This document shows, one piece after another, positions 46,301 through 49,300 of a stretch of DNA of 64,000 nt. Position numbers: made by a program. The DNA lies in NCBI RefSeq assembly GCF_003018115.1, contig NZ_CP027458.1; one strand, written 5' to 3'. Origin of the DNA: Escherichia coli. GTDB taxonomy: Bacteria > Pseudomonadota > Gammaproteobacteria > Enterobacterales > Enterobacteriaceae. How positions within the stretch are numbered: position 1 is the first letter of the stretch; each line of letters begins with the position of its first letter.

Positions 46301-49300
46301 CTTTCAAGCGAAGCTGAATGACGGCATGAAACGCTTTATGAGTGGCACTCCTTCTTGCGAGAGACGCTTTTTGTCGTTCTCTCGCAGGAACAGGATTCCC
46401 CCTTCTGTAAGGTCGCTTTTTTCCCGATGAGGAAGTCTCTGCATTTACTGTCTGCGACATCTCGCCTCCTCTCTTCTCAGACAGGGATCGTTTCGCAGAG
46501 GATACTACAGTTTTTTGAAATCAGCGACTTGAGAATTGTGACGAAGATCTGTGTTGGCGCACAAATCAACGGGGATTACTGTTGTTTAATGTGATTTTTG
46601 TTGCGAAATGGCTGAAAAACAGGAAATGCCTTAACCTGTGTGCCGGCCCCGGGCGGGACCGGCGGTTTCTGGCATGTCGGGTGTCTGCCCCTGAAATACC
46701 TCACACTTCCGGAAAGCGGGGACTTCCGTCCCCGCCCGGCAGCTTACTTCCGTGCTTCGTAGGCCAGAGTTACCTGCACCACTGTATTTCCCCTGTGAAT
46801 ATTCAGCTCACATAACCGTTCCCTGAATATCAGTGAAAAACACAACACCGTGGCGCACACGGCGAGCAACCCAATAAGGGTATATTTCGTCATAAACTTT
46901 GACCTCTCTGCAAGGAAGAGGCTACAATCAGTAGTGCTACGTACTTCATGCAGGCCTCACGAGTTAATGGATTAACAAGTGGGGTCTTCGCATTTCTGGT
47001 ACCTGCGTCTTGCCTGAACCAGAAAGGCTCAGACACCCGCCGCGATAATACCACATTCCCTGTTGCTGACTATTCCCTCCATTTCCCGCTTTTCGCTACA
47101 GAAACGCCGGGGACGGGGAAAACTTGCTTTTTCCCGTCCCCGGGGTTGGACAACTGAGCAACGCGAAGGCGTCAGTGGATTTTTATGATCCTTCCAAACT
47201 CTGCTTCCATTTTTTTCATATCCTGTTCTCTTACTGCGACTATCAGTTGTTTTCCTGATTTTCGTGCCACTCTGGCAAACTGCATGACGGCAGATTCATT
47301 ATTCAAATCAGGCCATCCTGTACAATTAAAAATAATAATATGCTCACTGGCGTTCAGTGCATCCCTGATAAAAATAACCGCATAATCATTTAATGTTCTG
47401 TCAGAACAACTGTAAATCTGGCTGAAATCATAATACTTATAATCAGTGATATTCAGTTTATTTAAAAAACCATCAACTTCAGAAGCTGAGTCCCCACTAT
47501 AAGAACATTATGATTAGACGATGTGATTAATTCTGATACTGCCTGATAGTTCATTTGTTCACCTTTCATTAACAGAGAAATAAGTTAATAATGTAATATG
47601 CTTCATGCTTTTAAATATCGCATTTCAATGAGAACTCAATAGCCACAGAAATATCATTATTTCCGTGAGCGCCATACCCAGGGCGGAACAGGAGCGCTGT
47701 CTGCCCACAGACCACGTTTCTGCTGTCGAGCTTCTCCCTGCAGGACGGGAAGAACAGGATCGGTGTTGTACTGCTCATAAACCCATGCAGCGCCTGCACG
47801 GACCATAAACTGATTAACATTCATTCCGTCTGGTGCATAAACCTGCCCGAGAATACGACCATAACGATCTCGCTGAAAATATGTGACAGTAACCGTTTTT
47901 CCCGTAACCAGAGATTTCATTATTTTTTCAGACCACCGTCCATAGTCCTGTTTCTTTTCAGGTGCATCAATATTAACAAGACGGACACGCACCGGATGCT
48001 GAGATAACATGACGTCAATGGTATCGCCATCCAGAACACGCACGACCCGTCCATGAATATCAGCAGAAAAAACCTGACATGAAAAAACAAATAATACCAC
48101 TGGTATATATTTCTTCATTTTACTCTCCGTCACTGATTACCTTTCGTGATTGCATGAATTCCATGCCGGGATGAATAACGGCTCACACATCACGCCAAAA
48201 ATAAACCGTTGAATTGTGATCAATTAGACAAAATAAGATGAGCTGGCTTAATACACATATGGCTATGTGTTACTAAAAACGCTGGTCAGCCAGCCTGACC
48301 AGACACATAAGAAACAAAGTCTCATGCATTATTCAGCCTTCTGATACCTGGAGTAACGAAGGCTGCTTTTTCTGTCACGTATTTCCCGTGACGGCGTTAC
48401 CGGTTTCCGGGGGTAACATGTGACGGAGATTATATTTTTAATCTCCGTGTATTCATCATACCTGCTCTTGCTGATAGGATAACTGTGTTATATCGCAGGC
48501 TACCGGATGTGGCGCTGAATATAATGGTCATAGATAAGTCATACATGCCCTGCTCAGGGGATTAGCGATAAGACGGACCGGGAGAGTCATCTCCCGGTTT
48601 TTCTTTATCCTGCCGCGAATACAGCCCGGCGGTCTGTCAGATTCACCGGATAACCCTGCTGTTATGCATGCCACTGTCACCTCCTGCTTCTTGAAATTCA
48701 TCACATTTTTTATCCCTGCTGGCTTACCCGGGATGTGAAATATGTTAATTCTGTGATGTCCGTTTGAAAGACAGGGCAACTCCTTCTTACACCACTATAA
48801 TAATAATAACGATCTGCCATATAAGCCTGATCCCCCGGAGCTCCGCGACGGGGGTTATTTTTATCGGCACTTACACCGGCATGCAGATGCCCTCTTCAGG
48901 GCAAAATCCCGCCATGCTTCACAGGGTGCCAGCCGGGCCGCATTCTGCCAGGCCTCTGCCGCTTCCCTGAAAAAGCCACGAATCTCCTGACGGACGGCAT
49001 GACGCCCCACGCGCTGATAGCGATAAATACCGCAGTGCTCAGATAATCCACTGGATACAGCCATTTTTTATCCCCCCCTTGACCCGGCTCCCGGATTATG
49101 TCAGAAACATTATGAAACATCCCTGAACGGTTGGGTGTTTTTCTCCATCAAAACTCTGGATGTCTGTTTTCCCGATTTTTTCGCTGTTGCCCTCTGTCAT
49201 ACAGAGGGCTCTTTTATTCCGCCAGGATCGCCCGCTGCTCATCCTTGATCCGGTTCTGTCTGCGCACCTTTTCCAGGCGCGCCTGCGCATACTGTTCTTC

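What the first reader, a model, noticed from the sequence alone, without database searches (positions are those of the whole stretch)
47095..47180. Two related hairpin elements with shared flanks but different stems (47102-47178 and 58638-58711)
Both copies share the flanks ACGCCGGGGA and CC(C)GGGGTTGGACAAC(T)GAGCAA(C/A)GCG(A)AGGCGTCAGT, but the enclosed stem-loop differs completely: GC-rich in copy A, AT-rich in copy B. The structure is retained while the stem sequence is not. Each lies just 3-prime of an AT-rich minus-strand gene (the frameshifted ORF; the traT-traD lipoprotein) and 5-prime of a backbone gene (srnB region; traD). Neither has a T-run, so they are not classical intrinsic terminators. 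Possibilities are a cassette-associated recombination site, a structured RNA or DNA-hairpin motif, or a boundary mark left by whatever delivered these genes.
Basis: seen in the sequence. Interest (0 to 1): 0.6.

Follow-up and report, generated by a model that had tools for sequence, protein, structure and literature searches.

The report
PhiX174-type primosome sites on IncF plasmid
The two hairpins are copies of a conserved single-stranded-DNA signal that closely resembles the site where the host protein PriA starts DNA copying on phage phiX174, and they sit on the plasmid strand that enters a new cell during conjugation, so they probably help turn that strand into double-stranded DNA.

Summary
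Two ~75-nt elements (47100-47175 and 58637-58709, + strand) share their ends but differ in the middle of the stem. The shared "flanks" are the lower stem of one ~44-nt hairpin (AAC-G-CCGGGG...CCCCGG-G-GTT, with a conserved G.G mismatch), a GGACAAC spacer and a short second hairpin ending in GGCGTCAG.

The elements are IncF backbone, not cargo marks. F carries the traT-traD copy with no cargo gene. R100 carries both copies, with other neighbours.

In 33 unique variants the stems change by compensatory substitutions, with 57 G.T against 7 A.C. The hairpin is therefore selected on the + strand. That strand is antisense to all neighbouring genes and is the conjugatively transferred T-strand.

A covariance model built only from the plasmid copies gave its best hit in phiX174 in the F-G intergenic hairpin (44 nt, same base, same G.G mismatch). 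Its best hit in ColE1 lies beside rop and nic. From memory, these are the PriA (n'/factor Y) primosome assembly sites.

Best reading: these are phiX174-type primosome assembly sites (ssi) that prime complementary-strand synthesis on the incoming T-strand. PriA binding was not tested. This is a new member of a known kind, and the two sites may already have been mapped in the 1991 ssi screen.

The parts
47100..47175 (+). Element A, whole unit (AGAAAC...GGCGTCAG): putative phiX174-type primosome assembly site on the T-strand, upstream of the hok/srnB-copB-repA replicon block
   Evidence: CM R1 93.2 bits, E 3e-23. DNA fold + strand -26.9 against - strand -21.6 kcal/mol. Same position in R100.
47103..47147 (+). 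Element A hairpin 1 (45 nt): AAC/GTT, G.G mismatch, CCGGGG/CCCCGG lower stem, variable upper stem, CTTGC loop
   Evidence: Inverted repeat I1, 20-nt arms. Folds. Aligns with the phiX174 44-nt hairpin.
47148..47154 (+). Element A conserved unpaired spacer GGACAAC
   Evidence: Kept (GGAYAA) even in variants found without requiring it (L042:1889, L029:7443, L024:11653).
47155..47175 (+). Element A second small hairpin/tail TGAGCAACGCGAAGGCGTCAG. It contains the TGA stop (47172-47174, - strand) of the upstream broken ORF.
   Evidence: Folds. ORF 47172..47306. The same stop-codon overlap is seen for unrelated genes in other plasmids.
58637..58709 (+). Element B, whole unit, in the traT-traD spacer
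   Evidence: CM R1 67.7 bits, E 2e-16. The same sequence occurs in F with no cargo gene.
58640..58683 (+). Element B hairpin 1 (44 nt), AT-rich upper stem with two G.T pairs on the + strand
   Evidence: Inverted repeat I1, 21-nt arms. DNA fold + strand -18.0 against - strand -11.9 kcal/mol.
58684..58709 (+). Element B spacer GGACAAC plus tail GAGCAAAGCGAGGCGTCAG
58774..59385 (-). AT-rich 203-aa lipoprotein-like cargo ORF between traT and element B. It is a neighbour, not part of the element.
   Evidence: No NCBIfam or PADLOC hit. Present in only 77 PLSDB records.
47172..47600 (-). Frameshifted ORF next to element A. It is a neighbour, not part of the element. An intact homologue lies on the other side of the element in L003.
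56294..58492 (-). traD. It gives the tra operon orientation, which makes the window + strand the T-strand.
   Evidence: The F nic sequence lies on the strand complementary to the tra genes.

Best explanation
Both elements are copies of a conserved backbone signal of F-like plasmids that works as single-stranded DNA: a phiX174-type primosome assembly site (n'-pas, 'factor Y effector site', ssi).

Proposed mechanism. When the transferred strand (the window's + strand) enters a recipient and is coated by SSB, the ~44-nt hairpin and its unpaired GGACAAC/second-hairpin tail stay folded. PriA recognises them. With PriB, DnaT and DnaC it loads DnaB, and DnaG then lays primers for complementary-strand synthesis. 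Copy A lies immediately 3' (on the T-strand) of the hok-copB-repA-oriR block. Copy B lies 3' of traD-traI-finO. Primers made there are therefore extended back over those blocks, while the primosome moves 5'->3' with the incoming DNA.

Shown here: the anatomy, the covariation, the strand on which the hairpin is selected, that this strand is the T-strand, and the sequence and structure match to the phiX174 and ColE1 hairpins.

Inferred: PriA binding, priming, and that the relevant single-stranded state is the conjugative one.
For: 1. Structure under selection. In 33 unique variants, hairpin 1 changes by compensatory substitutions. Some members have both hairpins fully replaced while TTGGACAA and CGTCAG are kept.
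2. Strand. With strand-neutral scoring there are 57 G.T against 7 A.C at 14 stem positions. All 29 unique variants tested are more stable on the + strand with both RNA and DNA parameters. Neighbouring hairpins in the same F spacer are better on the opposite, sense strand, which argues against a simple mutation bias.
3. T-strand. The F nic sequence GTGGGGTGT/GGTGCTTT is on the strand complementary to the tra and leading-region genes. In F, R100 and the window the element folds on that strand.
4. Homology to defined sites. Model R1 was built only from plasmid copies.
   - Its best hit in phiX174+G4 (11 kb) is phiX174 2307-2371 on the viral strand, in the F-G spacer (23.9 bits, E 3e-5). That site has a 44-nt hairpin with the same AAC-G-CC...GG-G-GTT base, the same G.G mismatch and a GACCAAGCGAAGCG tail.
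   - Its best hit in ColE1 is 1517-1604 (25.3 bits, E 7e-6), about 70 nt 5' of the nic region on the same strand.
   - No other hit in F, R100 or the window exceeds about 19 bits.
5. Literature. PriA binds a DNA hairpin (PAS) on SSB-coated phiX174 ssDNA and loads DnaB, and PAS sites also occur in pBR322/ColE1 as ssiA and ssiB (PMC5778457, PMC8246471, PMC3167613, PMC4132743).
6. Other classes excluded. No promoter, canonical terminator or Rfam family matches.
Against: - No biochemical test was possible.
- That phiX174 2307-2371 and the ColE1 site are the experimentally mapped n'/factor Y sites rests on my memory of Shlomai & Kornberg 1980 and Zipursky & Marians 1980-82. The papers I could read confirm only that such hairpin sites exist.
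- The CM E-values are roughly calibrated.
- The AAGCGG hexamer that I recall as typical of n' sites is exact in only some variants (L019, L042) and absent from the two window copies.
- F has a single copy and IncFIIK plasmids lack the traT-traD copy, so the element cannot be the only priming route.
- Up to three copies within 2 kb (L042) are more than priming would need.
- Distant relatives in GC-rich environmental contigs sit just after gene stop codons, which would also fit a 3'-end (RNA-level) role.
- The known F ssiA near ori-2 is not detected by the model.
Confidence: 0.6

Rival explanations
1. It is a PriA-type site but works in vegetative replication or fork restart rather than in conjugation. 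The hairpin would load a primosome when the strand is exposed during plasmid replication, as ssiA/ssiB do in ColE1.
For: The homology evidence is the same. ColE1 ssi sites are described as serving leading- and lagging-strand synthesis (PMC3167613). Copy A is always linked to the IncFII replicon. Non-mobilizable derivatives keep the element.
Against: By inference from unidirectional RepFIIA replication, the + strand is the leading-strand template and is not normally single-stranded. Copy B is 11 kb from the replicon, inside the tra operon. In ColE1 the matching site sits just 5' of nic on the nicked strand.
Confidence: 0.15
2. It is a sense-strand RNA element: the (partial) transcription terminator, insulator or 3'-end stabiliser after traT and after the last gene before the replicon. 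In this reading the hairpin acts in the mRNA.
For: It always lies just after a gene's stop codon, and the TGA often falls inside CTGACGCC. On the - strand the hairpin is followed by CGTTT(T)C. A study of traS/traT 'promoter and terminator activities' exists (Jalajakumari 1987, cited in PMC9849209; content from memory). phiX174 has its weak terminator TF in the same F-G spacer (PMC3335065). Insulating copB-repA from tra read-through would make sense.
Against: The substitution pattern is the reverse of what a sense-RNA hairpin predicts: 57 C.A mismatches against 7 G.U on the sense strand. The terminator scan calls neither copy. The U-tract is 3-4 U after two non-U bases and is missing in distant members (L024:11653, L029:7443). 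traD and traI must be transcribed through copy B. Hairpins next to it are the ones optimised on the sense strand.
Confidence: 0.12
3. It is a cassette-associated recombination site or boundary mark, analogous to an integron attC, at which the adjacent AT-rich genes were inserted.
For: Accessory genes sit on either side of both copies in different plasmids. Arrays of gene-element-gene-element exist (L042, L021). The folding strand is antisense to the genes, as for the attC bottom strand. AAC/GTT triplets and a GTTGGAC (GTTRRRY) box are present. A variant copy lies in tandem units that carry a XerC-like recombinase.
Against: The element is present without cargo in F and in about 1,900 plasmids. 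There is no RYYYAAC partner for GTTGGAC, and only 3 bp of an 'R box' pair. No integrase is linked in F-like plasmids. Duplicated units include 30-40 nt of the neighbour's 5' region, and remnants of the previous gene stay attached. The traT-traD cargo genes do not carry their own copy.
Confidence: 0.04
4. It is a structured RNA on the + strand, that is, an antisense RNA or part of one.
For: G.U-type pairs on the + strand fit RNA as well as DNA. Antisense RNAs on this strand are documented for IncF plasmids (AS-traI, AS-traG, AS-pc02).
Against: No conserved promoter exists: the 5' flank differs in every context. There is no terminator after the structure and no Rfam match. The same fold occurs in the packaged ssDNA strand of phiX174.
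Confidence: 0.05

Closest known systems
phiX174 primosome assembly site (n'-pas / PAS, PriA recognition hairpin) in the F-G intergenic region
   Same: A 44-nt imperfect hairpin with the same base (AAC-G-CC...GG-G-GTT, including the G.G mismatch). An A/T-rich upper stem like copy B. A purine-rich unpaired tail with a GCGAAG mini-hairpin. More stable on the strand that exists as ssDNA.
   Different: In the phage the hairpin is on the mRNA-sense (viral) strand. In the plasmids it is antisense to the genes. The tail differs (GACCAAGCGAAGCGCGG against GGACAAC...GGCGTCAG). PriA dependence is shown for the phage and only inferred here.
ColE1/pBR322 factor Y (PriA) effector sites, ssiA/ssiB
   Same: The model hits ColE1 1517-1604: hairpin + GACAAG + GCCC..GGGC + GCGTCAG, the same layout as the 'type C' plasmid variants. 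The site lies on the nicked strand just 5' of nic.
   Different: It belongs to a small mobilizable plasmid. It is described mainly in terms of vegetative leading- and lagging-strand priming (PMC3167613). The stem sequences are unrelated.
Frpo / ssi1-3 single-stranded DNA promoters of the F and ColIb-P9 leading regions
   Same: Hairpins that act only on the incoming T-strand and can provide primers (PMC9849209, PMC12672017).
   Different: Those are much longer hairpins that rebuild -35/-10 boxes for RNA polymerase and lie in the leading region. The present elements are about 44 nt, have no promoter boxes and lie in the tra-distal and replicon-proximal backbone.
G4-type (primase-only) G sites and RSF1010 ssiA/ssiB
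   Same: A hairpin plus conserved single-stranded flank that serves as a priming signal on ssDNA.
   Different: The model finds nothing in G4. No conserved CTG start site is present. RSF1010 sites need the plasmid's own RepB' primase.
Integron attC sites
   Same: Located 3' of genes, with stop codons overlapping. Conserved ends and a variable middle. Folds on the strand antisense to the genes. AAC/GTT triplets.
   Different: No paired R''/R' boxes, no integrase and no precise cassette junctions (see the membership test).

Membership tests
phiX174-type primosome assembly site (n'-pas, factor Y effector site, ssi) | An imperfect hairpin of about 40-70 nt with unpaired flanks that forms in single-stranded DNA | tested here: met
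   44-45-nt hairpins. DNA-parameter folds of -26.9 and -18.0 kcal/mol, z about -5.
phiX174-type primosome assembly site (n'-pas, factor Y effector site, ssi) | Sequence and structure similarity to experimentally defined sites | tested here: met
   A CM built only from plasmid copies gives its top hit at phiX174 2307-2371 (23.9 bits) and at ColE1 1517-1604 (25.3 bits). That these are the mapped sites is from memory.
phiX174-type primosome assembly site (n'-pas, factor Y effector site, ssi) | Lies on, and is optimised for, a strand that is naturally single-stranded | tested here: met
   G.T:A.C = 57:7. 29 of 29 variants are more stable on the + strand. The + strand is the T-strand by the orientation of the F nic.
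phiX174-type primosome assembly site (n'-pas, factor Y effector site, ssi) | Conserved AAGCGG hexamer (recalled from Marians and co-workers) | tested here: inconclusive
   GAAGCGG is exact in phiX174, L019 and L042:1125. GAGCGG occurs in many A-type copies and in ColE1. It is absent from window copy A (GGACGG) and copy B.
phiX174-type primosome assembly site (n'-pas, factor Y effector site, ssi) | PriA-dependent ATPase stimulation and SS-to-RF conversion of SSB-coated ssDNA | not testable with these tools
   Needs an M13 delta-ori plaque assay or purified PriA/PriB/DnaT/DnaB/DnaC/DnaG.
Intrinsic (rho-independent) terminator | A GC-rich hairpin immediately followed by a U-tract on the transcribed strand | tested here: not met
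   The scan calls neither copy on either strand. The + strand tail is GGGGUUGGAC. The - strand tail is CGUUU(U)C.
Integron attC | Complementary R''(RYYYAAC)/R'(GTTRRRY) boxes, a linked integrase and precise G|TT cassette junctions | tested here: not met
   GTTGGAC has no RYYYAAC partner (the 5' side is nAGAAAC). Duplications carry 30-40 nt of extra flank. The element occurs without cargo.
Frpo-type single-stranded DNA promoter | A long hairpin that rebuilds -35 and -10 hexamers | tested here: not met
   The stem is about 20 bp with no promoter hexamers. No promoter call overlaps it.
G4-type G site | Similarity to G4 oric or plasmid G sites, with a primase CTG start | tested here: not met
   No hit in G4. 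CTG is present only in E. coli A-type tails.
Any Rfam RNA family | Score at or above the gathering threshold | tested here: not met

The most novel reading that the evidence does not exclude
The element belongs to a cross-phylum family of PriA-loading hairpins. The same layout (hairpin + GGACAAC + CGAGG..GAGGCGTCAG) recurs in GC-rich environmental bacteria, including an Acidobacteria MAG with four alternating copies, usually right after a gene's stop codon. If these are functional, bacteria and their plasmids would carry dedicated, sequence-conserved primosome 'landing pads'. On F-like plasmids their placement would set which backbone blocks (replicon first, then traD-traI-finO) become double-stranded and expressible first after entry.
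Probability: 0.15. Interest if true: 0.75.

Novelty: new member of a known kind. Interest (0 to 1): 0.5.

Why it matters
How the transferred strand of F-like plasmids gets its complementary strand in the recipient is still only partly explained. The known single-stranded signals (Frpo/ssi) lie in the leading region. Deleting Frpo2 does not lower conjugation efficiency, and deleting Frpo1 only reduces it to about 25% (PMC9849209).

The present finding adds a conserved PriA-type site on the T-strand, next to the replicon and inside the distal tra operon, in thousands of resistance and virulence plasmids. That gives concrete, easily deletable candidates: F has exactly one copy. Existing live-cell ss-to-dsDNA assays can test them, and they link plasmid establishment to the host restart primosome.

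The finding also explains a recurrent hairpin that breaks draft assemblies. It further cautions against reading such conserved hairpins as terminators or cassette sites.

Tried and rejected
- **Rfam.** Gathering and E-value modes on both loci and on the environmental loci gave nothing.
- **Terminator and promoter scans.** Neither copy was called.
- **Integron attC, pdif/Xer sites and Tn3-type inverted repeats.** Checked by eye. The motifs do not fit: no RYYYAAC partner, no dif-like arms, no TAAG inner end.
- **Hammerhead core.** GAAA...UH is present, but CUGANGA is on the other strand. Rejected.
- **ECF-sigma or sigma-54 promoter.** AAC...CGTC is present, but the spacing varies from 12 to 16 nt. 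Rejected.
- **boxA-like antitermination signal.** The resemblance (CUCGUUGUCCA) is weak and on the wrong strand.
- **Peptide coding.** Indels shift the frame between copies. Rejected.
- **IS or MITE end.** In L062 the adjacent IS has its own inverted repeats 64 nt away.
- **Cargo proteins.** No NCBIfam or PADLOC family.
- **Literature.** Searches for the traT-traD spacer, T-strand hairpins and ssi maps of F and R100 found no description of these two sites. Nomura et al. 1991 is not held.
- **Retained but not pursued.** An early idea that the non-enterobacterial genome hits were chance was corrected for L018.
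Full report
**1. Observation.**
The window is an IncF plasmid segment with the tra operon on the minus strand. The gene order is traG, traS, traT, a 203-aa AT-rich ORF, traD, traI, traX, finO, two small genes, a broken ORF, hok/srnB, copB, CopA and repA.

The 15-mer CCGGGGTTGGACAAC occurs only twice in the window. A covariance model finds only these two copies there (93.2 and 67.7 bits). 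Both fold much better than shuffled sequence.

The shared 'flanks' are really three things:
- the lower stem of one ~44-nt hairpin, AAC-G-CCGGGG...CCCCGG-G-GTT, with a G.G mismatch;
- an unpaired GGACAAC spacer;
- a small second hairpin ending in GGCGTCAG.

The upper stems of A and B align and differ by paired G-C/A-T changes.

**2. Backbone, not cargo.**
BLAST finds each copy in more than 5,000 plasmid records, mostly two places per record.
- Classical F has only the traT-traD copy, in a 252-bp spacer with no inserted gene.
- R100 has it directly after traT, followed by a different 738-bp gene. R100 also has the second copy overlapping the stop of yihA/DUF2726, 170 nt before copB.
- Klebsiella IncFIIK plasmids have only the replicon-proximal copy.
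- The uninterrupted F-type spacer is in 1,877 records, while this window's cargo ORF is in 77.
- Accessory genes occur on either side.
- Where the element is duplicated, the repeat includes 30-40 nt of the next gene's 5' region. Remnants of the previous gene also stay attached, so the junctions are not site-specific.

**3. A conserved, structured family.**
One scan of species-representative genomes gave 26 true copies in F-like plasmids of Klebsiella, Enterobacter, Pantoea, Erwinia, Kluyvera, Kosakonia and others. BLAST and the covariance model added more.

Conservation stops sharply at (A)GAAAC and GGCGTCAG. Stems vary by compensatory changes. In some members both hairpins have entirely different sequences while TTGGACAA and CGTCAG persist (L029:7443, L024:11653). 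A diverged F-like lineage even has a compensated lower stem, AACAGCGG/CGCTGTT.

The TGA stop of at least four unrelated upstream genes lies inside CTGACGCC.

**4. Which strand.**
With scoring that treats G.T and A.C alike, hairpin 1 has 57 G.T against 7 A.C across 33 unique variants, at 14 positions. All 29 tested variants are more stable on the + strand with both RNA and DNA parameters.

In the same F spacer, the hairpin right after traT and the one before traD are better on the sense strand. A general mutation bias is therefore unlikely to explain the pattern.

In F, the nic sequence lies on the strand complementary to the tra and leading-region genes. The favoured strand is therefore the transferred strand.

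No conserved promoter precedes the element and no terminator follows it. Neither strand meets terminator criteria, and Rfam has no match.

**5. What it is.**
To test the idea of a single-strand initiation signal, I ran the model, which was built only from plasmid copies, on phiX174 and G4.

In phiX174 the single strong hit is 2307-2371 on the viral strand, in the F-G spacer. The sequence is TAACGCCGAAGCGGTAAAAATTTTAATTTTTGCCGCTGAGGGGTTGACCAAGCGAAGCGCGG. It forms a 44-nt hairpin with the same AAC-G-CC/GG-G-GTT base and the same G.G mismatch, and it is more stable on the viral strand. G4 gave nothing.

In ColE1 the single strong hit is 1517-1604: hairpin + GACAAG + GCCC..GGGC + GCGTCAG. It lies about 70 nt 5' of the nic region on the same strand.

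From memory, these are the protein n'/factor Y (PriA) recognition sites (Shlomai & Kornberg 1980; Zipursky & Marians 1980-82). The papers I could read confirm three points: PriA binds a hairpin PAS on SSB-coated phiX174 DNA, it loads DnaB there, and ColE1-type plasmids carry such sites as ssiA and ssiB (PMC5778457, PMC8246471, PMC3167613, PMC4132743).

**6. Mechanism proposed.**
On the incoming SSB-coated T-strand the hairpin is recognised by PriA. The primosome is assembled and DnaG primes complementary-strand synthesis.

Placement fits this reading. Copy A is immediately 3' of the replicon block on the T-strand, and copy B is 3' of traD-traI-finO. The ColE1 site is at the 3' end of its transferred strand.

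The biochemical steps are inferred. I put 0.6 on this reading and 0.15 on the same site serving vegetative replication or restart instead. A sense-strand terminator or insulator role (0.12) may coexist, but it is not what the substitution pattern reflects. An antisense RNA (0.05) and a cassette site (0.04) are unlikely.

**7. Novelty.**
PriA-type ssi sites in plasmids are a known kind. An ssi screen of F and R100 exists (Nomura et al. 1991, cited in PMC7690428), but I could not read it. These two sites may therefore already have been mapped.

I found no modern description of the following points:
- the family as a whole;
- its covariation;
- its strict T-strand polarity;
- its two conserved backbone positions;
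- its relatives in environmental bacteria.

Noticed in passing
L042 (NZ_CP020338.1) 1125-1198, 1889-1963, 3009-3083; L021 4531-4604 and 7052-7125: Arrays of two or three copies in direct orientation within 2-2.5 kb, each just after a minus-strand ORF. The middle L042 copy has a decayed lower stem.
   Followed up: partly
L046 3615-3685 and 12007-12077; L047 (NZ_CP074171.1 139-176 kb): A variant copy with a different hairpin 1 and a B-type tail sits in each of three tandem 8.4-kb units. Each unit encodes an HTH protein, a 1,034-aa CHC2 zinc-finger primase-like protein, a XerC-like recombinase, DinJ-RelE and orphan adhesin/CDI-like pairs. The units lie beside a cdiBA-like operon and traM.
   Followed up: partly
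L018 12914-13420 (Acidobacteria MAG); L048, L051, L053, L055, L056, L059-L063 (metagenome contigs, GC 0.56-0.68): The same layout occurs in GC-rich environmental DNA: a short GC hairpin, GGACAAC, CGAGG..GAGGCGTCAG, then an A-rich spacer and a GATC motif. It is usually right after the stop codon of a gene on the other strand. L018 has four copies in alternating orientation with a period of about 279 nt.
   Followed up: partly
L041 3430-3496 (+), Klebsiella IncFIIK plasmid NZ_CP021713.1: A weak relative (15.6 bits) lies between traI and traX: hairpin + CAGACAAG + CCGCAGGCGCGTCAG. The traI stop codon falls in CTGACGC. Its tail resembles the ColE1 site and the L015b and L024:11653 variants.
   Followed up: partly
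L038 5857-5936 (-) in F; L040 5984-6063 (-) in R100: A 19-bp hairpin lies inside the SLT/orf169 gene next to oriT, in T-strand orientation. It gives a weak model hit (19.4 bits).
   Followed up: no
L038 29553-29804 (F traT-traD spacer); window 58560-58735: The other hairpins of the spacer (GGAGGC..GCCTCC after traT, AACACT..AGTGTT before traD, CCGGC..GCCGG) are optimised on the sense strand. The spacer therefore mixes sense-strand and T-strand structures.
   Followed up: partly
window 44485-44505 and 44622-44642: Two Ter-like sequences (GTTGTAACTA core) in opposite orientation lie downstream of repA, as expected for an R1/R100-type origin region.
   Followed up: no
window 47172-47600 (-) and L003 1960-2388 (-): The broken ORF next to copy A is a frameshifted homologue of an intact 142-aa ORF that lies on the other side of the element in another plasmid. 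Neither this ORF nor the 203-aa lipoprotein-like ORF 58774-59385 matches NCBIfam or PADLOC.
   Followed up: partly
L007, L013, L015, L020, L022, L030, L031, L032 (draft genome contigs): Many copies lie within a few hundred bases of a contig end, which suggests that the hairpin or repeat breaks short-read assemblies.
   Followed up: no
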